Source of the DNA: Escherichia coli
GTDB taxonomy: Bacteria > Pseudomonadota > Gammaproteobacteria > Enterobacterales > Enterobacteriaceae
DNA: 64,000 nt
Strand: one strand, 5' to 3'
Assembly: GCF_003019035.1 (NCBI RefSeq)
Contig: NZ_CP027447.1
Part shown: piece after piece, positions 2,707 to 58,097 of the stretch
Position numbering within the stretch: the first letter of the stretch is position 1
How the letters are laid out: each line of letters begins with the position of its first letter
Made by a program: the position numbers and the translations under genes
Notes under the pieces: generated by a model
Databases searched by the model: none
What the model was told of the DNA's origin: nothing
Seen by the model: only the letters and a program-made list of their open reading frames with translations

Positions 2707-2972
2707 TACCACTCCAGATCTTGCTGTTCTGTTGATTCTGGCGAGGCATTTTTCGTGTCGCATAGCGTCATTGAGAGTTCAAGCGACTGTAAAATCTTAA
2801 AAAATGTCGTGAGCGTGGTATTGTCAGGGTTGTTTTCGAAATTGGAAATTGTCGCCTGCTTAATACCGATTTTTTTCGCCAGCTCGCTCTGCGTCCAGCC
2901 ATTTTGCTGACGAACCAGTTTCATTGCATTCGCTAATTGCGTTGGGTTATAGATCTTCTGAAAGCTCATCAT
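2706..2972 (-). CDS. hipB: HipB antitoxin, Xre-type HTH repressor (88 aa from MMSFQK)
   Basis: Sequence recognised as HipB; position immediately upstream of and overlapping hipA. Confidence 0.9.
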   Translation of the reverse strand: MMSFQKIYNPTQLANAMKLVRQQNGWTQSELAKKIGIKQATISNFENNPDNTTLTTFFKILQSLELSMTLCDTKNASPESTEQQDLEW

Positions 2973-2993
2973 GTCATACGTCCACAGCATATT

Positions 2994-3107
2994 TATCCGC
3001 TCAAGGGGATATTATCAGTTTTATCCTTTAGTGGGGATAAAGTCAATCAGGAAACACATCTTATCCGCTCTACGGGATAAACACTGTGATATCCGCGATC
3101 GCGGATA
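2994..3107. promoter_or_regulatory. hipBA promoter-operator region with four TATCC-N8-GGATA HipB operators
   Basis: Palindromes read directly at 2994-3011, 3022-3039, 3062-3079 and 3090-3107. Confidence 0.85.
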
Positions 3108-3182: not shown

Positions 3183-6100
3183 TTACCAGCTATATTTCAC
3201 ACCCAGCATGCCCTGAGTATCGCTATAGCCTTTATCACCTAGTTGCACACCGACATTCCCCCACAGGCTAAGGTTGTTATTTACTTTCGCCTCAACCCCG
3301 GTACGTACTTCACCGAGATTACGCGCACCATCACGGCTTACGTTTTGACCATTCATCTTCACGGCGTAGACTTTGCTGTTGTTGATCCAGTTCGCTTCAA
3401 TGTAAGGCTGGAACTCACGCTGTTTACCATTGTCACGCTGGTGATGACTGTTCTGGTAGGTTTTCACCCCAAGTCGTGTTTGCACGTTTCCGTCTCCTTC
3501 CGTTTCAATGCGTGTTCCGTCTTTCCGGGTATGGTCAGAATCTTTCACACCCATCCAGGTGATTTGTACCTGTGGCTGGACGTACCAGGTATTCAGCGTC
3601 CCTTCGCTGCCGCTAAATGTTCCCGCTTCAAAGGTATACCCACCCTCAACAGAGGCCGTCACACCGCGAGAATCATAGTCGTCAGCAGAACGGTTATCGG
3701 AACTGACGCTGTTATCAAACCAGTTATACAGCGCCCAGCTGTCAACATAAGCGCCGGTCTTATTCGCATCGTTCTGATACCAGGTCGCGTACAGTCCTGC
3801 GCTGTAACCGCTGATGCGCCCATCCGATTTATAACCCACATGATTACTCTGAGTATTACTGTGCTGATTGGCATAGCCTGCCATCACGCCGAGATGCCAG
3901 CGATCCTGCGCGTTGCTACTCCACTGCGCCAAATCGCCGCCTAGCTGCAATACATAGCGGTTAGCCTGAGTATTTAGCTGACCATCACCGGTCCTGAAAC
4001 GTTCGTGCCCTCCGACATGACGCATCCATATACTGGTTGCCGAATCCTGAACTCGCAGTGAATCTGTATACTGCGGCTCACCCAGACGGTCGTGTAAGCG
4101 ATGGCTAAACAGCGAGTTGGCTGCGGCAATGTTGCTGATATAGCTTCCGGCCTCCGGGCGATAAACTGATGGGCCTTCCGGATCCACAACAGGGGGATTA
4201 TTGATGGGATCGGGTGTATCCGCTGGCGTTACGCCGTCCCATTTACTGGTCAGATACCAGTTTTTCTCGTCATTCCCCTTCCCTTTAGCCAGCGTGTAGA
4301 CGTAAGCCCCAGCTTCGACAGTTCCGGTGGTCAGCGCGAAGTTACCTGCAGAATTACCGCCAACCTCAATGAGTTCAATACCGTTGACCGTTTGTGCACC
4401 GACGCCGCCAATGTTATTAACCCGAACGCGGGTATTGCCCTGCGTATCACCTTTTACGTTCATTTTATCCGTGGGGGAATTATCGCTACCCAGCGTCGCG
4501 TTGAACGTCATCAGGCCATTGTTTCCGGTATAGTTACCGTTAACGGTCAGTACATTCCCCGGTTTCCCCCCTTCGCTGTTCATTTGAACCGTGCCACCAT
4601 TCTCCAGGTTACCGCCGACAGTGGTTTTAGCGACACGCAGTGTCCCCCCAGGCATAACGTTCACATCACCTGCAGTGGTGACATTTCCCGACATCACACC
4701 GCTGTTATGGATATTAATGTGCTGACTTGCCATATTAATGGCAGAGTCGGAACCGAAAGCAATTTCACCACCCACGATATCCGTCGTACCCTGGTACGCC
4801 GCGGAATCGTTGTTAAGAGTCAGGATCCCGGACCCCAGTTTTGTCACACCGCCGCTACCGGTGATACTGTGCGTCATCGCCCAGCTACGCTCAGTGGAGA
4901 TGGTGAGCAGGCCATTATTGATAACGGAAGCATCACCCAGGTTTTTCTGCTCGTTGACGCTGAGCGCGCTGCCTGTATCAATGTTGAATTGCCCCACAAA
5001 GCGGCTATTATCGCCATCCAGCTCTACGTCTGTCCTGGCGGTTGCGCTCACGATACCCTTCCCGCTTATGCTATTACGCAGTTCGCCGGTCACGTTTTTT
5101 AGCGTTAACAGACCGTCATTGGCAATATTTCCTCTGCCTAACCCCTGCGTATTATCGAGGCTGACTTCCGCATTTGGGCTAACGCTGGTTAACGCATTGT
5201 AGCGTGCATTAAGCCCCTCGATAGCCAGCGTTCCCCCTGTAACATTCAGGTTTCCGCCACCTGTCAGTTCACCCTGACTGATCCCACCTTTATTCACCGT
5301 CAGCGACCCTTCTTTGAACAAAACAGTCGAACCCATCTGCCCGGTGAATGTCTCTACCGTCTGCGTCGATCCATTAAGATCGACGATGGCCGCGTTGCTG
5401 ATGTTCAGTTCCCGGGTGTTGCCCAGCGCGCCATCCGCATCGGTACGTAATGTCCCCATCTGAACGTAGGTTGCCCCCTGATAGTCGTTCTGACCGTTGG
5501 AAAGCGAAACCTGTCGCACCGTATTGATTGCCAGATCCCCTTCACCACCGATTTTTGCCGACATATCGGCCGTTGCGCCATAGGCTCCGCCATGTTCGGC
5601 TAATGTCAGCTTTTGCCCACCATGGATGTTCAGCGCTTTCAGCCCATAGTTAACGTACAAACCATCACCTGGTGCGGTCGTGAGGCGGAATCCATAATCA
5701 CCCTCGGCGACCACCGTTCCGTTTTGCGCAATGTGTAACGTTTTGTCCGCTTCCACCTCGTCGCCCTGTAAATCACGTAACGTTAATGAGCCACCCGACC
5801 CAATAACCGTTTGCGCCTTCACCAGTTGAACGCCGACATGGTTATCATCGTGTTCCAGCAAATTGAGCGTCGTCAGAGGGTTATTCGCCATGGGATCATT
5901 CCACGGTTTAGGCACGTCGATAAGCACGTCGCCCGTCCCGTTTACCTGATAGTTACGGCCTTTCCAGGTGTAGTCACCCGCGCCGACAGCCAGCGTATCG
6001 ACGCTGATATATCCCTCCGCAAGCGTCGCAGCAGGTATATCCGTATCGAAAGTGAGCGTACCGCCATTCATGGCTAGTCCACCAATGGATTGCTCTCCCA

Positions 6101-8603
6101 CGTTTACCGATGTGGTATTTTCACTGTCAGACTGAAGCATCGCGTGAGTAAGCGCAGCGGTGTTGTCGCGTTCCAGTGTGAAGGTACTGTCTTTCAGTTG
6201 GACAACACCGGCGAATTCAGTTCCTGTTGCATGGGTAAAGCCAAACATTTTGTCGGAGGATGACAGCTGCACTCGCATCAAGCCATCGCCTTTGAGCGCA
6301 TTGGTCAGCGTGTAATCTCCTGCGCTGTTCGTTGATGCGAGAATGTCGAGCGTACCGGGGCTTGCAATGGTGACTTCACTCGAACCCATGCCCGTTACCC
6401 CATCTGCCGTATGTGACGCAATGGTCAGGAGGCCGTCATTGACCAGCGTTTTACCGCTATAAGTATTCCCTGCATTGAACACCGTATGGCCTGCATCATG
6501 TATCACTTTTCCGTCTTTATCGTCACCCGTAATCAGCATATCGACCTGGTAGCCGGCATCACTGTTATTGGTATGATTAAAGACAAAAACACCTTCGCCA
6601 GAACCAAACTCTACTTTCGTCGCGTTGGCGATAAACCCGGCATCTGCCGCCGCCTCACCGTGAGCAGCACCAATGTTTAGCGTTCCTACAGCAGGTTCAA
6701 AAAGACCTAAGTAAACTTCGCCACCTTCGACATTCAGCGTGCCGTTATTCGTCAGGGTTAACGTACCCGTACCAGACGTCCCTACATTCATATTGAATGT
6801 TTCAAGAAGAGAGTTCTGCCCATCCACCCGCACGTCGCCCTTACTTTTGTCATTCAGAGCTATCTGTGTATCACGCGCTTTAACTATACCTCCGGTGGTA
6901 ATATTCAGTTCACCCGTACCTAATACACCGACCTGTAGCAATTGGGCGTTAGTAGATGACGTTTTTAAATTCCAGAGACTATCCGTTGAAATATTAACTA
7001 TCCCCTTACCGGAGGCATTTCCTCCGATAAATCCATAGCCCGTTGAATTAAGGGTGGCACCATTACTGACATTTACGATGCCGCTACCAAAATTACCGAC
7101 ATTGATACCTACAGTATCGAACGATGATGTCGCATCCATCAGGTTCAGTGTGCCGATACCGCTTGCTTTATCGCCCAAAAAAGTAATATTTTGCGATACG
7201 AACTTACCGCCATCGCTGATATTGAGGTTTCCGACGCCCGCAACACCAATGGTGGTGTAGACATTCTTATTGACCTCCCATATCCCCCCCGTGGTGATGC
7301 TAACCTTCCCGACGCCGGTTTCTCCATAACCGAGTGAACTTCCTCCGTTGCTGACAACAAGCCCCTCATTACTGATATTCATTTCGCCGTGGCCGTCATA
7401 ACCAAGATTAGTTCCGAGATTAGTGATAACGGAGTTCTTATCCTTAACAGTAATGTTGCCTGTGCCTGTTTCTTTCATCCCCGCAGTGATAATTCCCGAA
7501 TCTACTTTGCCTTCACTAGAGACATTAAGTTCACCGTCGCCAGCATCACCGATATAGATATAGCGGAAAGCTTCGCCCGTTCCGAGGAAATTCCAATGCC
7601 CTTTATCGGTCACGTTGACGACACCGTGGGAACCGTCCTGAACGCCCACCAATGAATATTCTTTGTTATTAATCAGTCCATTATTGGAAATATTGACTTT
7701 GCCATTACCGAAATATCCATTATAGAGTCTGCGTACCGTGATGACAGAGTCTTGATCCTGCACATTCAGGGTTCCGATACCGGTGGCATTGCCTCCGATA
7801 ATCGTATTTTCAGCCGTAATTAGCCCACCCTCGCGAATAGTCGCTTCCCCAGTTCCTTGATTACCAATTTGAAATTCAATTGAGGAATCGTTATTTTTTA
7901 TTAGCCACTCACCGCCCTTTTCAACGACAACCTTACCATTACTGTTCGCTTGATATCCTACAGTGGCGACTATTGAACTCGTGACGTAACCCTTATCCGT
8001 AATATTTAATGAGCCCGTACCGTAACTCCCTATTTCGAATAATTCGGTCGTCAGAACCGAGTCCTCTCCCTCAACATTAACCGTCCCGACGCCTCCTGTC
8101 GAAGAACCTATCCTTAAATATCCTCCGTCAACGTGACCCTTCTGTTTAATATTCAGCGTCCCCGTTCCGGATTGACCCACATTTAAAGGCCTTGCATTAT
8201 TTCCGCTATCATACAATCGCCAGGTCCCACCCAAAACATTAACGGTGCCCTCCGAGTCCTCATTAGCGCCAATGACGCTGGTAGTAATAGTGGTTAAGGA
8301 AGCATTACCGCCAGCCAAAATATTAAGCACTCCAGTGCCATACCAGCCAACCAGGTAGGCATCATAAGCAACATCAGTATCAATATTGGTAATCTGACCA
8401 TTATCAACTTCCAGACTCGCACCAGACGCTGAACCGCTTAGTGCCAGCAAAACACCCAGCGTCAATCTACTGAGTTTCGTTGTCAGTCCAGAGGATTTAC
8501 GCAAATTAACCGTCGATGTTTTACCTACCCTGCGAGTTAATTCAGAGCAGGCCTGAAATACCTGTAGAGTGCAATTCCATATCACGCGATAGATTCTATT
8601 CAT
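3183..8603 (-). CDS. AIDA-I-type autotransporter adhesin, 1806 aa, intact (YdeK/YneO-family locus)
   Basis: N-terminal extended signal peptide (MNRIYRVIWN...), long Gly/Thr/Asn-rich beta-helix passenger repeats, C-terminal beta-barrel ending ...LGVKYSW. Confidence 0.85.
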   Translation of the reverse strand: MNRIYRVIWNCTLQVFQACSELTRRVGKTSTVNLRKSSGLTTKLSRLTLGVLLALSGSASGASLEVDNGQITNIDTDVAYDAYLVGWYGTGVLNILAGGNASLTTITTSVIGANEDSEGTVNVLGGTWRLYDSGNNARPLNVGQSGTGTLNIKQKGHVDGGYLRIGSSTGGVGTVNVEGEDSVLTTELFEIGSYGTGSLNITDKGYVTSSIVATVGYQANSNGKVVVEKGGEWLIKNNDSSIEFQIGNQGTGEATIREGGLITAENTIIGGNATGIGTLNVQDQDSVITVRRLYNGYFGNGKVNISNNGLINNKEYSLVGVQDGSHGVVNVTDKGHWNFLGTGEAFRYIYIGDAGDGELNVSSEGKVDSGIITAGMKETGTGNITVKDKNSVITNLGTNLGYDGHGEMNISNEGLVVSNGGSSLGYGETGVGKVSITTGGIWEVNKNVYTTIGVAGVGNLNISDGGKFVSQNITFLGDKASGIGTLNLMDATSSFDTVGINVGNFGSGIVNVSNGATLNSTGYGFIGGNASGKGIVNISTDSLWNLKTSSTNAQLLQVGVLGTGELNITTGGIVKARDTQIALNDKSKGDVRVDGQNSLLETFNMNVGTSGTGTLTLTNNGTLNVEGGEVYLGLFEPAVGTLNIGAAHGEAAADAGFIANATKVEFGSGEGVFVFNHTNNSDAGYQVDMLITGDDKDGKVIHDAGHTVFNAGNTYSGKTLVNDGLLTIASHTADGVTGMGSSEVTIASPGTLDILASTNSAGDYTLTNALKGDGLMRVQLSSSDKMFGFTHATGTEFAGVVQLKDSTFTLERDNTAALTHAMLQSDSENTTSVNVGEQSIGGLAMNGGTLTFDTDIPAATLAEGYISVDTLAVGAGDYTWKGRNYQVNGTGDVLIDVPKPWNDPMANNPLTTLNLLEHDDNHVGVQLVKAQTVIGSGGSLTLRDLQGDEVEADKTLHIAQNGTVVAEGDYGFRLTTAPGDGLYVNYGLKALNIHGGQKLTLAEHGGAYGATADMSAKIGGEGDLAINTVRQVSLSNGQNDYQGATYVQMGTLRTDADGALGNTRELNISNAAIVDLNGSTQTVETFTGQMGSTVLFKEGSLTVNKGGISQGELTGGGNLNVTGGTLAIEGLNARYNALTSVSPNAEVSLDNTQGLGRGNIANDGLLTLKNVTGELRNSISGKGIVSATARTDVELDGDNSRFVGQFNIDTGSALSVNEQKNLGDASVINNGLLTISTERSWAMTHSITGSGGVTKLGSGILTLNNDSAAYQGTTDIVGGEIAFGSDSAINMASQHINIHNSGVMSGNVTTAGDVNVMPGGTLRVAKTTVGGNLENGGTVQMNSEGGKPGNVLTVNGNYTGNNGLMTFNATLGSDNSPTDKMNVKGDTQGNTRVRVNNIGGVGAQTVNGIELIEVGGNSAGNFALTTGTVEAGAYVYTLAKGKGNDEKNWYLTSKWDGVTPADTPDPINNPPVVDPEGPSVYRPEAGSYISNIAAANSLFSHRLHDRLGEPQYTDSLRVQDSATSIWMRHVGGHERFRTGDGQLNTQANRYVLQLGGDLAQWSSNAQDRWHLGVMAGYANQHSNTQSNHVGYKSDGRISGYSAGLYATWYQNDANKTGAYVDSWALYNWFDNSVSSDNRSADDYDSRGVTASVEGGYTFEAGTFSGSEGTLNTWYVQPQVQITWMGVKDSDHTRKDGTRIETEGDGNVQTRLGVKTYQNSHHQRDNGKQREFQPYIEANWINNSKVYAVKMNGQNVSRDGARNLGEVRTGVEAKVNNNLSLWGNVGVQLGDKGYSDTQGMLGVKYSW

Positions 8604-49068: not shown

Positions 49069-49853
49069 AATTCACAGGTGTTTTTTCCCATCCTGTGGTT
49101 TCCTTGGCGTTTTCTAGGTTTTTTCAGATAGTTGCATTTTTTAAAAAGCATCCTAAGTTCGATCTCAGTGTCTATCTGGGGCCTATTTCTGTCCCATATA
49201 TGCCCCAAAAAAACTCCCCAACAGATAAGTAGTTTTTTCATGGATTTATGCGTAAAATCAAGAACGGCTGGAAATCATTCAATACTCACACTATCGAAAA
49301 ATTTACCAGCCAACCGCAGCACGTTCTTGCATAAGGCGTGTCTGCGGTTTTTCAACTATTCAGATACATCACTCCCATCACATTCATTCCTCCGCATCAA
49401 AGGCATATAGGCTATATCACCTTGATATTTTTCTTTTTCAGATAAAAACTGTTATCTATGTATACTTTTAAACCCAATCCGTGTAGAGTCTCTGCATAAG
49501 ATAGTTTGCAGTTGCCGCTTCAGCTTGCGCCATAAACCGCCTGATTTTTGCTGCCACCTGTTAGCATTCCTGTATACCTGAAACGACAATGTTTATCTAC
49601 GAACTTTAAGAACACCCAAGATAAAAATTGTCAACTATATCATATATAACACATTACTAATTCGAGGCTATATGAACAGCATACTGATAATCACTTCTCT
49701 CCTTATCATATTCAGCATTTTTAGTCATGCCCTAATAAAATTAGGGATTGGCATATCCAATAACCCAGACAAAACCGATGTATAAGTCAACATATCCTGA
49801 ATCAGACATACAATATCGCAATGAAAATCAATAATATTTTAAGGAATATCTTC

Positions 49854-50087
49854 ATGAAATCAAAAGACACCCTAAAGTGGTTCCCTGCGCAGCTTCCTGA
49901 AGTAAGAATTATCCTAGGGGATGCTGTAGTGGAAGTAGCAAAACAGGGAAGACCTATCAATACCAGAACATTGCTTGATTACATTGAAGGAAACATAAAG
50001 AAAAAATCATGGCTGGATAACAAAGAATTATTACAAACAGCGATATCAGTTCTTAAAGACAACCAAAATTTAAATGGTAAAATGTAA
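49854..50087 (+). CDS. ydfK: Prophage small protein YdfK (77 aa from MKSKDTLKWF)
   Basis: Start chosen at the ATG with AAGGA Shine-Dalgarno (49854) rather than the track ATG at 49821; recognised as YdfK/YnaE family. Confidence 0.75.
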   Translation: MKSKDTLKWFPAQLPEVRIILGDAVVEVAKQGRPINTRTLLDYIEGNIKKKSWLDNKELLQTAISVLKDNQNLNGKM

Positions 50088-50403
50088 TATAATAAACTTA
50101 CTTTTTTATCATTTTTCCACTTTAACAACATTTTGCTCCACTTTTCCACGACCAAACAACTTGAAATCTGGTTAAAATAACACGCAACACTATTCTTCTT
50201 CCTTGAGTCCGCCCGGAACTCGAAAAACAAACCGAGTTAAAGCCATTTCTCACAAAACCGATTTTGGGTCTCACCAAAATTACGGGGTTGCATACGCATT
50301 CGTTTATTTTCGAACGTGTACATACAAATATGCACAAAAATAATCAAAATTATTTTCTGAGATGCATTATGATATGAACACCAATTTCGTATAGAGTCTC
50401 ACT

Positions 50404-50994
50404 ATGTCTCGAATTTTTGCTTACTGTCGGATATCAACGCTGGATCAGACCATCGAAAATCAACGCCGGGAAATCGAAAGTGCAGGTTTTAAAATCAAAC
50501 CTCAGCAAATAATCGAAGAACACATTAGCGGCTCAGCAGCAACCAGTGAGCGTCCTGGTTTTAACCGGTTGCTTGCTCGCCTGAAATGTGGTGATCAATT
50601 GATTGTGACAAAACTGGATCGCCTTGGTTGTAATGCAATGGATATCAGGAAAACAGTGGAACAACTGACCGAAACAGGTATCAGAGTGCATTGCTTAGCA
50701 TTGGGGGGCATTGACCTGACCAGTCCAACAGGAAAAATGATGATGCACGTAATTTCAGCAGTCGCTGAATTTGAACGAGACCTTTTACTTGAACGCACTC
50801 ATTCCGGGATAGTAAGAGCCCGCGGCGCAGGGAAACGTTTTGGTCGACCACCTGTGTTAAATGAAGAACAGAAACAGGTGGTATTCGAACGAATTAAGTC
50901 AGGTGTAAGTATAAGTGCCATTGCCCGGGAATTCAAAACCTCGCGGCAAACCATTTTAAGAGCCAAAGCAAAACTTCAGACACCTGATATATAA
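50404..50994 (+). CDS. pin: Serine recombinase, Pin/Gin/Hin-family DNA invertase (196 aa)
   Basis: N-terminal resolvase catalytic domain (…[10 protein letters not shown]…) and C-terminal HTH; convergent with the tail-fibre genes. Confidence 0.9.
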
Positions 50995-51091
50995 AAAATA
51001 ATCTCGGTGTGAGATGCTTTACGTCTTCCAAGCCCCCTTCCTTGCCGTAAATGGAAAGATACATCTAATTATAGAATTTATATGTTTTACC

Positions 51092-51208
51092 CTACGGCAG
51101 TGCTGGCCATTCAATATCCTGTGCAGTTGACGTATCAACACGGTTCAGCAATACCCGATACTTTTTCCATGCTTCCAGCAACGAGGTTTCTTCCTCCGTT
51201 GCATATAC
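51092..51208 (-). pseudogene. tfa: 3' remnant of a tail-fibre assembly gene (tfa), about 38 codons
   Basis: Frame encodes …[38 protein letters not shown], matching the conserved Tfa C-terminus; homology stops abruptly upstream. Confidence 0.6.
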
Positions 51209-51221
51209 AGCCCACCTTTTT

Positions 51222-51515
51222 TCACCCACGATTAACCAACAGCCAGACCAGCAGACACGCCACCACCGGCACAGCAAAATCCATCAGGCTTGCCACATCC
51301 CACGCGCGCGGATCAAAACCGCCCCACCACGGCATATTCATTCGCTTGCCATGCCCGAACATTTCAATCCAGCGATATTCTGCCTGGGTATGTTCACGCG
51401 CAATGAAGAACGTACAACCGGCTATCGCTCCGTAAGCCCAGTTTCCGGTAAAAAGACCAACCAGTATCTGCGCAGCCACAGCACAAAGTGCATGAAGTAA
51501 GGGGCTTATATCCAT
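51222..51515 (-). CDS. Hypothetical small membrane protein (97 aa, two predicted TM segments)
   Basis: Hydrophobic stretches [28 protein letters not shown] and [15 protein letters not shown]; no lipobox; lies where the tfa body is expected. Confidence 0.5.
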
Positions 51516-51527
51516 TATTTCCTCCTT

Positions 51528-51806
51528 TCAGCTCCATTCCCGAAGCGGTGTTTCCAGCTCCACGACATAATCAGAGAATACAGAAACATCAAACAAGTCA
51601 TCAAGAATGCGAATGTTGACAAAATAACCGTTATTCCGGATACAGACAGGTTCTCCCTCTTCAGTTACCCCTGTTTCTGTGTAGGTGAAACCAATTTCAT
51701 CGACTAACAGTTTATTCTGGAGGTCTTCATCTTCCTCCCAGTCAAGAGATGACAGGAAGGATTTAAACTCTCTGTTACCAGGAAATTTCAAAGTTAAATC
51801 TTTCAT
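51528..51806 (-). CDS. Hypothetical small acidic protein (92 aa); possible fibre chaperone or moron product
   Basis: ORF immediately downstream of, and 4-nt overlapping, stf; Asp/Glu-rich; no resemblance to Tfa that I can see. Confidence 0.5.
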   Translation of the reverse strand: MKDLTLKFPGNREFKSFLSSLDWEEDEDLQNKLLVDEIGFTYTETGVTEEGEPVCIRNNGYFVNIRILDDLFDVSVFSDYVVELETPLREWS

Positions 51807-53833
51807 ACTGCCTCCTTGATTTGCCTGTCATTTAATTCTTTAAACCAGACTCTGAAATTTCTGATGTGTCCAAACAAATGACGCGTTCCTGCTGCGGTCT
51901 GCCCACCAAACCGGTACGATGTTGCTGTAACTCCAAATATTTTACCATTAAGGTTTGTTGTATAATTACCATTGCATATTGCATTTACTGATAAATCAGA
52001 TTTAGCTCTCACACCCACAATGAACCTTTCTCCATCTGAGGAAATTTGTGGCTGAACCATTCCTACGTTGGCGCTTATCTTTCCTGTTGAAACAAACCCC
52101 AGCGATAAATAATTATCATCAATACTGTGCCCTCCAACATCAAATATCCTTGGCGCAACATTGGGCGGTGTACTCCAGTTCCTCCTTACTTCGCACAATA
52201 CTGTAAAAGGCCGTGTTGACAGGTTATTCGCCGAGGGGATAGTAACCACATCACTTGCGCGTGTTGTTGGCATTGTAGTTACAATAAATGACGATGCCGT
52301 ATTGCCCAGTTCAATTTGCGGCGTCGTCATGGTTAATGTTGAGTCATCATAGAATGGCTCATTACTTATTTTATTTGTCATATAAAAAGCACAGTTAACG
52401 GTATCAATGTCCGTATTAGCTGTATAAGTGGCCTCATAGTAGGTCCACTCGCCCTGTTGTTCAGCTTTGGCTGTTATAAGGGATGTATTACCGCTTACTG
52501 TTGCGATCCGGGTATCCAGATCAAGATAAGAGTCAGCAGAGAATGTATCTGTTCCACCAATAATAACTGAAACTCTTAACCTGCATCGTGCTTTAGCGCC
52601 TTTAACCCGGCACGAAAAAGTGAAACATTCACCACTTGCCAGCGGGAATCTGTCTGCTGCAACCACACCATGCACAGTATAGCCACCTGTTGTTCCCACT
52701 ATACTTTCCGTGGGTGTCACCGTGGCATAATTGAACCCCTGTTTATCAGTGCCAAATGTTTTATTCAGTGCGGAATGAACAGTCCATGAGTCTGGTTTAT
52801 TTGAGTTCCTCAGATAATTTGTCCTCTGTCCTTCAATCAATAAGCCATCGCGCTCAAATCGCGGTTCGTCAACTTCAGCAAGCTTGAGTTGGCCGGACTT
52901 ATTAATATACGTTGCTGTTGAAGCACGTTTAAACTTAACAATCTTGTCGCCTGGCATTGTTATTTCATCGTCACCAATAACAATCTTTTTATAAGATGGC
53001 GAAAAACCCGTAATCATATCCAGCGAATCGTTAAACGGTATCCACACATCAGGCAGCGGCGGCACTATATTCGCATAGGGCTCTGCAGTCACTTCCGCTG
53101 CGGCTTCTGCGCGGTCTGCCGCCTTTTCAGCTCGTGTCGCTGCCGACAGAGCCTCATCCTTTTTCTGCCCGGCCTTTGTTGCGTCTGCTGCGGCCTCCCG
53201 CGCTTTTGTGGTGGCGACTCCGGCATTTTCAGCGGCTGACTCTGCATTACGGCGGGAAGCCTCTTCACTGTCTGCGGAGGCTTCTTCTGACGCACGGGCA
53301 TTTGTCTCTGAACGTTCTGCCGCTGTTGCTGCGTTTTGTGCGGCTGTTTTTGAAGAAGCTGCCGCTTTCGCGCTGTTACCTGCATTCGTCTCTGATGTTT
53401 TCGCCGCGTTCCTGGACGATGCCGCTGCTGTTTCTGATTTCTTTGCTGCCGCTGCGCTCTGAGAGGCGGCTTCAGCGTTGCGTGCTGCTTCTTCCACCAT
53501 TGCCTCAAAACGACGCAATGCCTCCGGCATGACATCATCTTCCGTCATGGCACCGAGAAAATCATTCAGCGTACCAGGTCTGGAACCTTCATAGACGGTA
53601 ATGGTTCCGGCATGTGAAGGCGGAAAACCTTCAACCAGCAGGGTGACGCTGTACTGGCCATACTCGACATCCATGCTGTAACGCCCGGCTTCATCCGGAT
53701 TTTCAGAGGCTACCGTGTTCACCAGTACCGTGGTGCTGTTACGCTTTGCCTTCAGTTGAATAGTGCAGTTCTGTATTGGTTTTCCCGCACCATCTTTCAG
53801 CACACCTGAGATTTTTACTGCTGCCATATCCAC
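51803..53833 (-). CDS. stf: Side tail fibre protein Stf (676 aa) with lambda-type N-terminus and lectin-like C-terminal domain
   Basis: N-terminus MDMAAVKISGVLKDGAGKPIQNCTIQLKAKRN… matches lambda Stf; Ala-rich coiled segment; C-terminus …HLFGHIRNFRVWFKELNDRQIKEAV resembles the terminal strand of Laminin-G/concanavalin-like domains. Confidence 0.85.
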   Translation of the reverse strand: MDMAAVKISGVLKDGAGKPIQNCTIQLKAKRNSTTVLVNTVASENPDEAGRYSMDVEYGQYSVTLLVEGFPPSHAGTITVYEGSRPGTLNDFLGAMTEDDVMPEALRRFEAMVEEAARNAEAASQSAAAAKKSETAAASSRNAAKTSETNAGNSAKAAASSKTAAQNAATAAERSETNARASEEASADSEEASRRNAESAAENAGVATTKAREAAADATKAGQKKDEALSAATRAEKAADRAEAAAEVTAEPYANIVPPLPDVWIPFNDSLDMITGFSPSYKKIVIGDDEITMPGDKIVKFKRASTATYINKSGQLKLAEVDEPRFERDGLLIEGQRTNYLRNSNKPDSWTVHSALNKTFGTDKQGFNYATVTPTESIVGTTGGYTVHGVVAADRFPLASGECFTFSCRVKGAKARCRLRVSVIIGGTDTFSADSYLDLDTRIATVSGNTSLITAKAEQQGEWTYYEATYTANTDIDTVNCAFYMTNKISNEPFYDDSTLTMTTPQIELGNTASSFIVTTMPTTRASDVVTIPSANNLSTRPFTVLCEVRRNWSTPPNVAPRIFDVGGHSIDDNYLSLGFVSTGKISANVGMVQPQISSDGERFIVGVRAKSDLSVNAICNGNYTTNLNGKIFGVTATSYRFGGQTAAGTRHLFGHIRNFRVWFKELNDRQIKEAV

Positions 53834-53891
53834 TCCACAAAAAAGCCCGCCTGAACCGGCGGGCTGTCATAACACTGTGTTACCTGGCTAA

Positions 53892-54491
53892 TCAGAATTT
53901 ATAACCGACACCCACGATGAAACCGTCAGTGCGCCAGTCACCACTGCCGGAACCTTCATAAGCAAGGTCAATGGCCACGGATTCGGTCGGGTTAAACTGC
54001 ACGCCAGCCCCCCACGCCAGAGACGTGTTGCTGTGGCGACCGTCATCACTTCCGGTCAGCACATCGTGCGTTTTCCCCTTGTTGTCAGTTACGCGGAGAT
54101 AATCCCCGGAGAAGGTCGACACACGGCTGTAAGCCATACCCGCCATCGCATACGCGCTGAACCATTCATTCACGCGCACAGACGGCCCCGCCATCACGCT
54201 GAACCAGCGGTTACGCACGGAATCTTCATGCCAGCGGGTATCGCTGTAATGCGTTTTTTGCTCATCTTTGGCATTGGCATAACTGAATGACGTCACCAGC
54301 CCCAGCGTGTCCGTAAACTCATAACGGTATTTCACGTTAATCCCGTTCAGATCATCGCTGCCGGGAACGTTCGTCGAGGCATGAAGATACCCCGCGCTCA
54401 GCGTGGACTGATGTTCAGACGCCCATGCAGGCGCACCGGATACGGCCAGACAAATGGCTACGGACAAAATGGCGGCATAAAGTTTACGCAT
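53892..54491 (-). CDS. lom: Lom outer-membrane protein (Ail/PagC/Lom family)
   Basis: Signal peptide plus 8-strand beta-barrel family sequence ending …GFIVGVGYKF. Confidence 0.9.
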   Translation of the reverse strand: MRKLYAAILSVAICLAVSGAPAWASEHQSTLSAGYLHASTNVPGSDDLNGINVKYRYEFTDTLGLVTSFSYANAKDEQKTHYSDTRWHEDSVRNRWFSVMAGPSVRVNEWFSAYAMAGMAYSRVSTFSGDYLRVTDNKGKTHDVLTGSDDGRHSNTSLAWGAGVQFNPTESVAIDLAYEGSGSGDWRTDGFIVGVGYKF

Positions 54492-54557
54492 AATTACCTC
54501 TCGCTTTTCTGCAATAAAAAAGGCGTCATTTCTGACGCCCGTTATGGGTTATAAAAT

Positions 54558-57500
54558 TCAGCTGATACTGATGCCTGCGGTGGCTTTCTTCATCACCACA
54601 ACCAGCAAATCGCTGATACTTGCTGTGGGATACCAGTCATTTACCAGCCATGCTGACACCGAAAACTCCAGCGTCATGTGGCCGTGACCAGCTGGCATAT
54701 CAATAACGCCACTGTAAATCAGCGTATTATCCAGCGCGGTACGGTTATAAATTTCAGCACCGTTTTTCCGCACTATCAGACGGCATGAGGAGTAAATATC
54801 AGTATGCTCTCTCTCATGTTTAGCACCGCTGAATGCCACCGCCGGAATAACAATCTGCCGGTCAAACGGCTGATCGTCATAAATCCTGACGGTAATGGTC
54901 CCTGATGGCCACCGCTCCGGTGCCCGGGAGTCCCGCGGGAAAGCCTTACCCACTGTTTTGACAATATCGCCTTCAATCTGGTTGGCTGACAGTTTCCCTT
55001 TAATCTGACAGTTCTCATTTATCGTAACGTTGTTGAGCGTCCCGGCGTTCGCATTCACACTGCCACTGATATCCGCATTTTTCGCCGTCAGTCGCCCGTC
55101 CGGTGTCAGGGAAAATGCCGGAGGATTACCGCCGCTGGTAATGGTGGGAGCCGTCAGATATTTCAGGAACACGTCATTCATGAATATCTGATCGCCCTGA
55201 CCAACAAACATCGGCTTTGTGTTGCCATTCGCAGGATTAATCATCGCAATCCTGTCTGCCGCCAGCAGCACCTGACTCTGCATGCCGTCGGGGGTGTTCT
55301 CAATACCGGCACCGATACCCGCAATATAAAGGCGTCCGTCCTGCATCTGCTGCAGCTTCACTGCCCACATGCTGTTCAGGTTATTATTTGTATCAACCTG
55401 AACCTTCTGTATCTGCTGGATCGCTGCACTCTGGTCTTCCAGTTTCTTATTGACGGTCTGTGTTATTTCATTGCTGACATCCGTTATGGACGTCCTGATT
55501 TCAGTCAGGTCAGGCGCAAGCTGACCGTTATCAATCTGCGTCCACAGCTCCTGAGCCAGATGGGTTTTCCCTATCTCGCCTTTGAAAAAATCCAGATAGC
55601 CGGATGCATCATCACTCGGCTGACCAACAGCCTCCACGAATGCCGATTTGCCAACGGTGTTCACACTGCGAACATAAAAATAATAATCATGGCCCGGTTT
55701 GATATTGATACTGGCGGCTATCCAGTACAGCGCCGTACCAAGATAACGCGCGCTGGTTTCAACCTGCCTGATATCAGCAATCCGTTTTTCCGAGAACCAG
55801 AACTCAAACTGTACCGTCGGATCATAAACCGCAAGATGCGGCGTGGCGGTTATCTGAAAATAGCCCGGCGTCAGCTCAATCCGCGACGGCGCTGCCGGTG
55901 CGGCAATCCGGAACGATACCGACGCCGGATCGCCCTGCTGCCCCCACGCATTTACTGCCCGGACTGTCAGCCTGTAGTTCCCCAGAGCCAGTTGTGTGAA
56001 GCGGTAAGTGGTTTCCGTCGTCCGGGCCGTGCTGACCAGCCGCTCACTGCCGTCATCCGCTGCCACGGTCAGGCGAAGCAGGAAGCTCACGCCCTTCACC
56101 ACCTTCGGTGTGTCCCATCGCGCCAGCACCTGATATTCCCCGCTGTCTGCAGTGACTTCTGCGGTCAGGTGCTGCACTGCTGGCGGCGTGACACCATTCA
56201 CCGTGCCGCTCTGGTCACCGTCAAAGTGCGCCCCGTTATCCACGATGGCTTCTTTCTCCGGTACATGCTGCACGGCAGTGATGGCATACGTACCGTCATC
56301 GTTCTCACGGATACTCACACAGCGGAACAGACGCTGGCGCAGCGTCGGCAGCTTCAGCCCCCATACGCTGTATTCAGCAACACCGTCAGGAACACGGCTC
56401 ACTTTTACCTTCACGCCGTCGGTGACGGACTGAACCTCCACGCTGACCGGATTGCCACTTCCGTCAACCAGGCTTATCAGCGTGGTACCGGAGGATGGCA
56501 GCGTGATTTCACGGTCGAGCGTCAGCGTCCGGGTCTGGCTGTTCACCGCCAGCACGCGACCACCGATGCTGATACCGGCATAGTCATCATCACAGATTTC
56601 AATGACATCGCCCGGTACATGGCGAAGCCCTTCTGCGCCCACGCTGAAGTCCACGGTCTGCGTTTCCAGCAGTTCCGTTTTAATCAGCCACAGCCCGGCG
56701 CGGTGCGCCTGCCCCCGGCTGGTACAGCCAAAAGCATCCATCTTCGTGACGTTACGACCGTAACGGGCAATGGCCTGCGTGTCCTCCACAAGCTCTGTTG
56801 CCGTTTCCCAGCCGTTATCCGGGTCAATCCAGTTCACTTCAACGGCATTATGGCGGTCCTTCAGGGCGCTGAAGCTGTAGCGGAACGGCGCGCCATCATC
56901 CGGCATCACCACATTACTGCGGTTATAGGTCCACACCTTATCCGACGGTCGGTCCTGCACGAACGTCAGCGTCTGCCCGTTCCATACCGGCATACAGCGC
57001 ATCGCCGAGCAGAAATCACTGAGCACATCCCACGCCTTGCGCTGTGTGGTCAGGTACGCATTACAGGTAATGCGCGGCTCCGTGCCGCCAAAGCCGTCCG
57101 GCACCGACTGGTCGCAGTACTGGCCGATGACATACAGCGCCCATTTATCCACATCCGCCGCACCAAGACGTTTCCCCATGCCGTAGCGCGGATGGGTCAG
57201 CATATCCCACAGACACCAGGCCATGTTGTTGCTGTATGCTGGCTTAAACGTTCCGTCCCAGATACCGCTGTATTGCCGCGTCAGCGGGTTATAGTTCGAC
57301 GGCACCTGCAGAATACGCCCGCGCAGATGATAATTACGGCTCACCTGCTGGCTGCCGAACTGCTCCGAGTCCACCTGCACGCCGACCAGTGCCGTGTTCG
57401 GGTAGCACTGTTTCACATCGATGATTTCGGTGTATGACGACCAGAGCGTTTTGTTCTGCAGCTGGTCTGTAGTGCTGTCCGGCGTCATCCTGCGCATCCG

Positions 57501-58034
57501 GATACTGAACGGGCGCGGCGGCAGGTTACCCACCACCACCGAGGCCAGATACTGTGAGGTGGTTTTGCCTTTAATGGTGATGTCTTTTTCCGTCACCCAG
57601 CCACCGTTACGTTGTATCTGAACCAGCAGGCGGACTTCCGACGGATTCCGGTCACCCTTTGAGGTGGTTTCCACCAGTGCCTGCACACCAAAGGTAAAGC
57701 GCAGACGGTCGATATTTGCAGACGTGATGGTGCGGGTTATCGGCGTGTCGTATTTCACTTCCGTACCCAGCACCGTCTCGGAGCCGGAGGATTCAAAACC
57801 CTCCGGCGGTGTCTGCTCCTGCTCACCGGCCCGGAACACCACCGTGACACCGGCGATGTTGGTATTCCCTTCGCTATCCAGCACCGGCGTACTGTTCAGC
57901 AGCACGCTTTTTAATCCATCCACCGGACCTTCAATCGGCCCTTCGCTGATGGCATCGATCACACTCAGTAACTGCGTGGATTTCAGGTTGTCCTTCGCTT
58001 CGCGCGGGGTATGCCCCTTACTGCTGCCTTTACC
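54558..58034 (-). CDS. J: Tail tip host-specificity protein J (start at [15 protein letters not shown])
   Basis: N-terminal ~850 aa match lambda J as I recall it; C-terminal ~300 aa diverge; the track ORF extends 16 codons upstream. Confidence 0.9.
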
Positions 58035-58097
58035 CATTCCTAACGCTCCATAAACGACAAAACCGCCCGGAGGCGGTTTCACATAAAATATTTTGCA

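What the first reader, a model, noticed from the sequence alone, without database searches (positions are those of the whole stretch)
54558..58034. J host-specificity protein with a divergent C-terminal receptor-binding region
The N-terminal ~850 residues track lambda J closely, but the last ~300 residues (from about …[20 protein letters not shown]… to …ATAGISIS) differ from the lambda LamB-binding domain as I recall it. With the variant Stf this implies a receptor specificity distinct from lambda. The comparison is from memory and needs an alignment.
Basis: inference. Interest (0 to 1): 0.4.

Follow-up and report, generated by a model that had tools for sequence, protein, structure and literature searches.

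The report
Lambda-like J tail tip, OmpC-type receptor domain
This prophage gene encodes a lambda-type tail-tip protein J whose last 150 residues are a common, already studied allele that targets the porin OmpC instead of lambda's LamB, so the finding is real but ordinary.

Summary
The gene is real. It lies on the minus strand (ATG 58037, stop 54558-54560) and encodes 1159 aa. It is annotated in RefSeq as the J gene of an intact Qin-site lambdoid prophage of E. coli GF131, which matches the J gene at 100%.

Residues 1-806 are 98% identical to lambda J. The divergence is in two blocks:
- A helical-shaft segment (aa 807-895) is 33% identical and about 27 aa longer.
- The receptor-binding domain (RBD, aa 1011-1159) is 43% identical.
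- A conserved fibre segment lies between them (76% overall, 83-93% over aa 940-1014).

The RBD has the same fold as lambda's (Pfam PF12421). Its last 131 aa are identical to those of the plaque-forming phage PhiR55_1. They match the O157 Sakai Stx1-prophage J at 127/131. That allele matches the published "gpJ 1A2" chimera at every readable variant position. The 1A2 chimera redirects lambda from LamB to OmpC and works on 20 of 23 tested OmpC variants, but not on K-12 OmpC.

The closest solved structure is the related A8 gpJ bound to OmpC (PDB 9wcb). DNA for this RBD occurs in about 3,360 of 5,426 complete E. coli genomes.

This is already known and of low interest.

The parts
54558..58037 (-). 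Complete J gene (tip attachment / host specificity protein), 1159 aa plus stop
   Evidence: ORF and translation. 100% identical to the RefSeq CDS 2270608-2274087 of E. coli GF131. Six Pfam J domains found. Start codon and RBS match lambda.
55620..58037 (-). aa 1-806: hub domains, FNIII-A and two Ig/FNIII domains; the lambda-like part
   Evidence: 790/806 identical to lambda J. DNA identity 93-99% in 150-nt windows. Pfam PF24801, PF13550, PF24421, PF24489.
55353..55619 (-). aa 807-895: divergent segment at the position of lambda's alpha-helical shaft, with about 27 extra residues (roughly aa 836-862)
   Evidence: 33% identity to lambda with 28 gap columns. The domain name comes from the lambda gpJ structure paper PMC11101478. 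PhiR55_1 is 97.5% identical and PPompW prophages 95% identical over the last 360 aa, which include this segment.
55008..55352 (-). aa 896-1010: central straight fibre (beta-prism), a conserved island between the two variable modules
   Evidence: 76% identical to lambda overall, and 83-93% in 30-aa windows over aa 940-1014. Part of Pfam PF09327, which matches aa 872-1000. Contains the stretch used as the fusion point (lambda aa 964) for the gpJ chimeras in PMC11338833.
54561..55007 (-). aa 1011-1159: receptor-binding domain (Ig-like), 1A2/Sakai-type allele, predicted to bind OmpC
   Evidence: Pfam PF12421 over aa 1029-1159, E 3e-37. 43% identical to lambda and to the 434 J; 57-62% identical to A8. 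For aa 1029-1159: 131/131 identical to PhiR55_1 and 127/131 to VT1-Sakai/1A2. The AF2 model best matches PDB 9wcb/9wca (A8 gpJ with and without OmpC) and 8xck/8xcj (lambda).
53892..54491 (-). lom (Ail/Lom outer-membrane protein), immediately downstream of J as in lambda
   Evidence: Pfam PF06316, E 7e-125. RefSeq annotation.
51803..53827 (-). Side tail fibre gene stf (674 aa): lambda-like N-terminal part, unrelated distal part
   Evidence: aa 3-159 are 73% identical to lambda Stf and the rest shows no meaningful match. Pfam PF08400 at the N-terminus. phrog_1419 over aa 195-674.
58098..58670 (-). Tail assembly gene I, upstream of J. Gene order H-M-L-K-I-J-lom-stf as in lambda.
   Evidence: Pfam PF06805. 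RefSeq annotation and gene order.

Best explanation
This is the central tail-fibre and hub protein J of an apparently complete lambda-like prophage at the Qin (ydfJ) site of E. coli GF131. It is a mosaic. The hub and FNIII part is essentially lambda's. The C-terminal receptor-binding domain is the 1A2/Sakai-type allele.

Inferred by homology to lambda gpJ and to the A8 gpJ-OmpC complex: three J chains form the tail tip. The three Ig-like RBDs at the distal end insert their bottom loops into the extracellular face of a trimeric porin. Here that porin is OmpC rather than LamB. Binding then triggers the rearrangement of the fibre and hub that opens the tail for DNA ejection.

Shown here: the gene, its domain architecture, the mosaic boundaries, and near-identity to an experimentally characterised allele.

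Inferred: that this exact allele binds OmpC, and which OmpC variants it accepts. By analogy with 1A2, it should accept most natural E. coli OmpC variants but not K-12 OmpC.
For: Identity of the gene:
- All six J domains are present, including the C-terminal RBD family PF12421.
- aa 1-806 are 98% identical to lambda J.
- The gene sits in a lambda-order tail module.

Link to the 1A2 allele:
- The RBD is 127/131 identical to the VT1-Sakai J C-terminus.
- The published gpJ 1A2 DNA was read from the supplement of PMC11338833 and aligned allowing for frameshifts. It agrees with the window at 118 of 126 readable RBD codons.
- It agrees with VT1-Sakai at all 10 positions where VT1-Sakai differs from the window.

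Receptor evidence from PMC11338833:
- The 1A2 and A8 chimeras were screened in a lamB-deleted recipient.
- In a lamB/ompC double deletion, delivery depends on the OmpC variant supplied on a plasmid.
- 1A2 gives 76-99% delivery with 20 of 23 OmpC variants, including G17 (EDL933), and about 1-2% with G1 (MG1655), G2 and G40.

Structure:
- The closest solved structures are 9wca and 9wcb, the 'A8 gpJ 713' fibre in the closed state and in the open state with OmpC G17 from EDL933.

Function and host:
- The same 131-aa RBD is carried by PhiR55_1, a plaque-forming phage (PMC13190303). The allele therefore works in a live virion.
- The lysogen's own OmpC is not the K-12 type. It is 90% identical, with the differences in stretches that probably correspond to the surface loops. 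This is compatible with 1A2-like specificity.
Against: - No experiment exists for this exact allele.
- It differs from 1A2/Sakai at 4 RBD positions (I1052V, R1076K, D1134N, S1157T) and at 6 further positions in aa 993-1025. In lambda J, point mutations in this domain are known to change porin use.
- The 1A2 sequence was read from an error-laden machine-read PDF, so 4-7 codons are unreadable.
- The source-data sheet for Extended Data Fig. 2, panel C (1A2 on EDL933 OmpC) repeats the panel B numbers (about 2% delivery). This contradicts Fig. 1b and the G17 data (98%). I take it to be a copy error in the sheet, but it is an inconsistency in the published record.
- GF131's OmpC is a third type, close to PDB 2xe2. 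I could not place it among the paper's 23 tested variants.
- Whether the prophage is inducible is unknown.
Confidence: 0.8

Rival explanations
1. The RBD still uses LamB, as lambda does, and the sequence divergence is neutral drift within one receptor specificity.
For: The fold and Pfam family are the same as lambda's RBD. Framework residues are conserved (FDRQI, DMPAG, KK..GIS).
Against: Identity to lambda's RBD is only 41-43%. The nearly identical 1A2 C-terminus works in lamB-deleted cells, needs OmpC, and fails on MG1655, which has LamB but the K-12 OmpC. Wild-type lambda J fails in the lamB/ompC double deletion complemented with OmpC.
Confidence: 0.03
2. The allele binds a porin or outer-membrane protein other than OmpC (for example OmpF). 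Alternatively it has a materially different OmpC-variant range from 1A2, because of its 4-10 substitutions or its A8-like stretch at aa 993-1025.
For: There are ten differences from 1A2 in the swapped segment. D1134N lies in a predicted loop of the model. A8 and 1A2 differ in which OmpC variants they accept, so allele-level changes in range do occur. The lambda gpJ structure paper notes that point mutations can retarget lambda J to OmpF.
Against: All four substitutions in the RBD core are conservative. In the model, I1052V and R1076K lie in beta-strands. The two relatives with a known receptor in this clade, 1A2 and A8 (57-62% identical), both use OmpC.
Confidence: 0.12
3. The gene is a relic in a defective prophage and no longer serves adsorption, like the cryptic Qin prophage of K-12.
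For: The prophage occupies the Qin site and carries Qin marker genes (dicB, hokD, pinQ, ydfK). A few prophage genes are annotated as pseudogenes, including a tail fibre assembly remnant.
Against: J is an uninterrupted 1159-aa ORF, whereas the VT1-Sakai J is split by a mutation. The head, tail, lysis and packaging genes are annotated as intact in lambda order. The same RBD works in PhiR55_1.
Confidence: 0.05

Closest known systems
gpJ 1A2 chimera (Brodel et al., Nature 2024, PMC11338833), which matches the J C-terminus of the O157:H7 Sakai Stx1 prophage VT1-Sakai (AP000400) at every readable variant position
   Same: The RBD core (aa 1029-1159) is 127/131 identical. The swapped segment (window aa about 992-1159) is about 94% identical. 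The C-terminal motif [17 protein letters not shown](S/T)IS is shared. The receptor shown experimentally for 1A2 is OmpC.
   Different: Ten substitutions in the swapped segment. The window protein also has a non-lambda helical-shaft segment with about 27 extra residues, whereas the chimera keeps lambda's. The VT1-Sakai J itself is disrupted by a mutation.
J of Escherichia phage PhiR55_1 (PV340571)
   Same: 96.1% DNA identity over the whole gene. 97.5% protein identity over the last 360 aa. RBD core 131/131 identical. It has the same long helical-shaft variant and is a live phage.
   Different: Six substitutions in aa 993-1025. Its Stf and downstream genes are different. I found no receptor data for it.
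A8 gpJ (PDB 9wca; 9wcb in complex with OmpC G17 of EDL933)
   Same: Same fold and same receptor class. Identical QIK...GDIVKTV stretch at aa 1011-1028 and the same C-terminal motif. Best structural match of the AF2 model.
   Different: Only 57-62% identical in the RBD, with an insertion in one loop (HENFNSNNQQSYWY). A8 also accepts K-12 OmpC, which 1A2 does not.
Lambda J (P03749; PDB 8iyk, 8xcj, 8xck)
   Same: aa 1-806 are 98% identical. Same domain order and same RBD fold. Same gene neighbourhood.
   Different: The RBD is 41-43% identical. The helical-shaft segment is 33% identical and 27 aa shorter in lambda. Lambda's receptor is LamB.
J of phage 434 (lambda h434, OM418627), the classical OmpC-using J
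   Same: Lambda-like N-terminal 806 aa (98%) and the same RBD family.
   Different: The RBD is only 41-46% identical to the window's, no closer than lambda's. The 434 type and the 1A2/A8 type are therefore separate alleles.

Membership tests
Lambda-type tip attachment protein J (central tail fibre and hub) | Domain series: FNIII-A, hub (Phage-tail_3), two Ig/FNIII domains, tail tip fibre, C-terminal Ig-like RBD | tested here: met
   PF24801, PF13550, PF24421, PF24489, PF09327 and PF12421 all score above their curated cut-offs, in the same order as in lambda J.
Lambda-type tip attachment protein J (central tail fibre and hub) | Position in a lambda-order tail module (H-M-L-K-I-J-lom-stf) | tested here: met
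   ORF map, RefSeq annotation of the identical GF131 region, and Pfam hits for I, Lom and Stf.
Lambda-type tip attachment protein J (central tail fibre and hub) | Trimeric assembly at the tail tip that opens on receptor binding | not testable with these tools
   Inferred from 98% identity of aa 1-806 to lambda J, whose structures are solved (8iyk, 8xcg).
LamB-binding RBD allele of lambda J | High identity to lambda J residues about 1001-1132 | tested here: not met
   54/132 alignment columns identical (41%) over aa 1029-1159. The Pfam model, which scores lambda at 247 bits, scores this protein at 128 bits.
OmpC-binding gpJ RBD alleles (1A2 / A8 clade) | Near-identity to an allele with experimentally shown OmpC dependence | tested here: met
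   127/131 identical to VT1-Sakai, which matches 1A2 at every readable variant position. OmpC dependence of 1A2 is reported in PMC11338833.
OmpC-binding gpJ RBD alleles (1A2 / A8 clade) | Fold match to the solved gpJ RBD-OmpC complex | tested here: met
   The AF2 model (pLDDT 77) has 9wcb_F as its top PDB hit (E 3.6e-19, TM 0.70, 66% identity), followed by 9wca. Lambda's RBD matches equally well by TM-score (0.72-0.73), so the fold alone does not separate the receptor classes.
OmpC-binding gpJ RBD alleles (1A2 / A8 clade) | Adsorption or DNA delivery that requires OmpC, shown for this exact protein | not testable with these tools
   Needs a wet-lab assay. None was found in the literature searched.
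434-type OmpC-binding J allele | High identity to the RBD of lambda h434 J | tested here: not met
   41-46% identity depending on the segment and denominator, with several indels.

The most novel reading that the evidence does not exclude
The features that set this J apart from the tested 1A2 chimera could give it a receptor range or triggering behaviour that differs from both 1A2 and A8. Those features are the helical shaft about 27 aa longer than lambda's, the A8-like stretch at aa 993-1025, and four RBD substitutions including D1134N in a predicted loop. One possible outcome is use of OmpC variants that 1A2 cannot use.
Probability: 0.1. Interest if true: 0.3.

Novelty: already known. Interest (0 to 1): 0.12.

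Why it matters
It matters little for discovery. The exact protein is already a RefSeq entry. The RBD allele is present in roughly 60% of complete E. coli genomes, often in several copies. Its receptor class (OmpC) has been shown experimentally and used in engineered lambda delivery particles. A related allele has been solved in complex with OmpC.

The practical value is for annotation. This prophage's J can be labelled as 'OmpC-type (1A2/Sakai-like) RBD', and its host range should not be inferred from lambda's LamB dependence.

The gene also illustrates the modular structure of lambdoid J genes. Two exchangeable modules, the helical shaft and the RBD, are separated by a conserved recombination island.

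Tried and rejected
- Translating the + strand at the given coordinates gives only stops; the gene is on the minus strand.
- The GTG at 58082 that opens the mechanical ORF was rejected as the start. The ATG at 58037 was preferred because the junction and RBS match lambda and RefSeq.
- The gpJ 1A2 protein sequence is not printed in the paper. I rebuilt it from recoded DNA in a machine-read PDF. Plain tblastn broke on the frameshifts, so I wrote a frameshift-tolerant alignment. I then used VT1-Sakai as a clean proxy.
- I tried to place the host's OmpC among the paper's 23 tested variants. The OmpC alignment (Supplementary Data 10) is not in the held supplement text. I can only say it is neither the K-12 nor the EDL933 type.
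- Finding ompC in GF131 took five annotation calls, because the genome is rearranged relative to K-12 and the K-12 gene was needed for comparison.
- I looked for receptor data on PhiR55_1. The source paper (Brenes and Laub 2025) is not held, and the SNIPE paper gives no outer-membrane receptor for it.
- I found no paper describing PDB 9wca/9wcb.
- I searched for inverted repeats that would mark a pin-invertible tail-fibre segment next to pinQ and found none of 14 bp or more.
- I did not run the large protein-database searches. The phage, E. coli genome and PDB collections already answered the question.
Full report
**What is at the coordinates.**
The + strand of 54558-58034 translates to a string of stops. 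The gene is on the minus strand. The ORF 54558-58082 contains the lambda J N-terminus [16 protein letters not shown] from the ATG at 58037, and it ends ...[10 protein letters not shown]. The 60 nt upstream, including the GGAGCG..AGGA ribosome-binding region, are nearly identical to the lambda I-J junction.

The J gene is 100% identical to E. coli GF131 (chicken meat, Switzerland; NZ_CP172134.1). There the same CDS is annotated as 'phage tail protein', WP_047664591.1.

The surrounding genes follow lambda order: tape measure (H), M, L, K, I, J, lom, stf. They belong to a prophage of about 44 kb inserted in ydfJ, the site of the cryptic Qin prophage of K-12. The prophage carries Qin marker genes (dicB, hokD, essD, rrrQ, pinQ, ydfK) together with a full set of lambda-like head and tail genes.

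**Comparison with lambda J.**
Lambda J was taken from J02459. BLASTP gives 84% identity overall. A global alignment split by segment shows:

| Window aa | Identity to lambda J | Note |
|---|---|---|
| 1-806 | 790/806 (98.0%) | hub and FNIII part |
| 807-895 | 33% | 28 gap columns; window protein is 27 aa longer overall |
| 896-1010 | 76% | 83-93% in 30-aa windows over aa 940-1014 |
| 1011-1159 | 43% | receptor-binding domain (RBD) |
| 1029-1159 | 41% | RBD core |

DNA identity is 93-99% up to nt 2400. It then falls to 42-65%, rises to 90% for nt 2851-3000, and falls again to about 56%. This is a clean mosaic pattern.

The structural paper on lambda gpJ (PMC11101478) names the C-terminal domains. 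Using those names, the first variable block lies at the position of the alpha-helical shaft. The conserved island is the beta-prism 'central straight fibre'. The second variable block is the Ig-like RBD, whose bottom loops contact the receptor.

Pfam finds the same six J domains in the window protein and in lambda J. The RBD family PF12421 is matched end to end, at 128 bits against 247 bits for lambda.

**Which allele this is.**
The last 131 residues are 96-99% identical to J of more than 50 deposited phages. These include PhiR55_1, VT1-Sakai (the Stx1 prophage of O157:H7 Sakai), the PPompW prophages, many long-tailed Stx1a and Stx2a phages, JLK-2012, P-EibA and 2G7b. The next tier of hits is below 60%.

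Counting on an alignment gives the following:
- PhiR55_1 is 131/131 identical in aa 1029-1159.
- VT1-Sakai is 127/131 identical, with I1052V, R1076K, D1134N and S1157T.
- Both differ from the window at six more positions in aa 993-1025.

PhiR55_1 shares the whole gene at 96.1% DNA identity. Its last 360 aa, which include the long shaft variant, are 97.5% identical. It is a plaque-forming temperate phage used in recent work (PMC13190303).

In complete E. coli genomes, the 450-nt segment encoding the RBD is found at 80% coverage or more in 3,363 of 5,426 genomes. The median is two places per genome that has any match.

**Receptor.**
The PDB sequence search returned 'A8 gpJ 713' (9wca, 9wcb) as a better match than lambda for the C-terminal part. 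A8 and 1A2 are two natural gpJ C-termini that Brodel et al. (Nature 2024, PMC11338833) fused to lambda J after residue 964. The chimeras were screened in a lamB-deleted recipient and characterised in a lamB/ompC double deletion carrying OmpC variants on a plasmid.

I read the 1A2 DNA from the paper's supplement. It is recoded and machine-read with errors. Aligned to the window protein with a frameshift-tolerant alignment, 118 of 126 readable RBD codons agree. The ten genuine differences are exactly the ten positions at which VT1-Sakai differs from the window. The 1A2 allele therefore matches the Sakai-type allele at every readable variant position.

The source data show 76-99% delivery by 1A2 for 20 of 23 OmpC variants, including G17. 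Delivery is about 1-2% for G1, G2 and G40. G1 carries the same values as the MG1655-OmpC panel. The title of PDB entry 9wcb identifies G17 as the EDL933 OmpC.

One caveat applies. The source-data sheet for Extended Data Fig. 2, panel C repeats the numbers of panel B. This contradicts Fig. 1b and the G17 data, and I read it as an error in the sheet.

An AlphaFold2 model of aa 985-1159 was built from a 6-sequence alignment (mean pLDDT 77). Its best PDB matches are:
- 9wcb ('Open state of A8 gpJ 713 central tail fiber with OmpC G17 from E. coli EDL933') and 9wca, at 66-67% identity and TM 0.70.
- Lambda 8xck and 8xcj, at 49% identity and TM 0.72-0.73.

The fold is thus shared by all alleles, and it is the sequence that assigns the receptor class. 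Against A8 the window RBD is 57-62% identical. Against the classical OmpC-using 434 J (lambda h434) it is 41-46% identical, no closer than lambda.

**Consistency check on the host.**
I located ompC in GF131. Its product is 90% identical to K-12 OmpC. The differences are clustered in a few short stretches, which by general knowledge of porin structure probably correspond to the surface loops. It is nearly identical to the clinical-isolate OmpC in PDB 2xe2, and about equally distant from the K-12 (2j1n) and EDL933 (9wcb_A) proteins. So the lysogen does not carry the one OmpC type that 1A2 is known to reject. I could not place it among the paper's tested groups, because the OmpC alignment is not held. 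This check is compatible with the inference but weak.

**Mechanism.**
Shown here: an intact J gene with lambda's hub part and an RBD of the 1A2 type.

Inferred from the lambda and A8 structures and from the chimera experiments: the trimeric RBD docks onto trimeric OmpC instead of LamB. This docking starts the rearrangement of fibre, shaft and hub that opens the tail.

The 1A2 chimera kept lambda's shaft, so the variant shaft is not needed for OmpC recognition. Its longer length is of unknown consequence.

The side fibre is also different from lambda's. Only about the first 160 residues of Stf align with lambda Stf, at 73%. The distal part belongs to another tail-fibre family, with a weak sub-threshold carbohydrate-binding-module hit. 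This suggests a surface glycan as primary receptor, but I did not pursue it.

**Verdict.**
The interpretation, a receptor distinct from LamB, is supported and can be sharpened to OmpC with about 0.8 confidence.

Nothing here is new. The protein is in RefSeq, the allele is one of the commonest J alleles in E. coli, its receptor class has been shown experimentally, and a related allele has been solved with OmpC. Interest is low.

Noticed in passing
window 49100-64000; continues beyond the window end (L002, GF131 2,235,800-2,279,000): The prophage carrying this J sits in ydfJ, the site of K-12's cryptic Qin prophage, and has the Qin marker genes (dicB, ydfD, hokD, cspB, cspI, essD, rrrQ, pinQ, ydfK). 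Unlike K-12's Qin, it also has a full lambda-like packaging, head and tail module. It looks like an undeleted relative of Qin.
   Followed up: partly
window 50404-51806: Downstream of stf there are two small ORFs of unknown function (92 aa, phrog_1361; 97 aa, phrog_1443) where lambda has tfa. A short remnant of a tail fibre assembly gene and the invertase gene pinQ follow. No inverted repeats of 14 bp or more flank the region, so the pin-invertible fibre segment appears to be lost.
   Followed up: partly
window 54960-55061 (J aa 993-1025): Micro-mosaic at the start of the RBD. At aa 993, 1011-1013 and 1025 the window protein has the A8-type residues (S, QIK, I). The RBD core that follows is 1A2/Sakai-type.
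   Followed up: yes
window 3183-8603 (-): A 1806-aa ORF, annotated in GF131 as an ECSE_1600 family autotransporter, lies next to the lsr operon.
   Followed up: no
window about 31270-37450: Between eamA and marB there is a cluster of six genes: a GntR regulator, PTS IIB, IIC and IIA components, a carbohydrate porin and a 6-phospho-beta-glucosidase. From memory, eamA and marB are adjacent in K-12, so this may be a strain-variable island. I did not check this.
   Followed up: no
outside the window: GF131 about 1,544,000-1,559,000 (L006, L007, L009) and the ompC region at 3,050,000-3,100,000 (L010): Gene order in GF131 implies a large chromosomal inversion relative to K-12, from about K-12 0.905 Mb (ybjP) to about 2.24 Mb (mdtQ side). 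One junction lies next to a truncated pentapeptide-repeat gene. K-12 coordinates are from memory. The second junction was not located.
   Followed up: partly
PMC11338833, source data for Extended Data Fig. 2, panel C (supplement file 10): The numbers given for 1A2 and A8 on EDL933 OmpC are identical to those of panel B (MG1655 OmpC). They contradict Fig. 1b and the G17 series, which show 98% delivery by 1A2. This is probably a copy error in the published sheet.
   Followed up: partly
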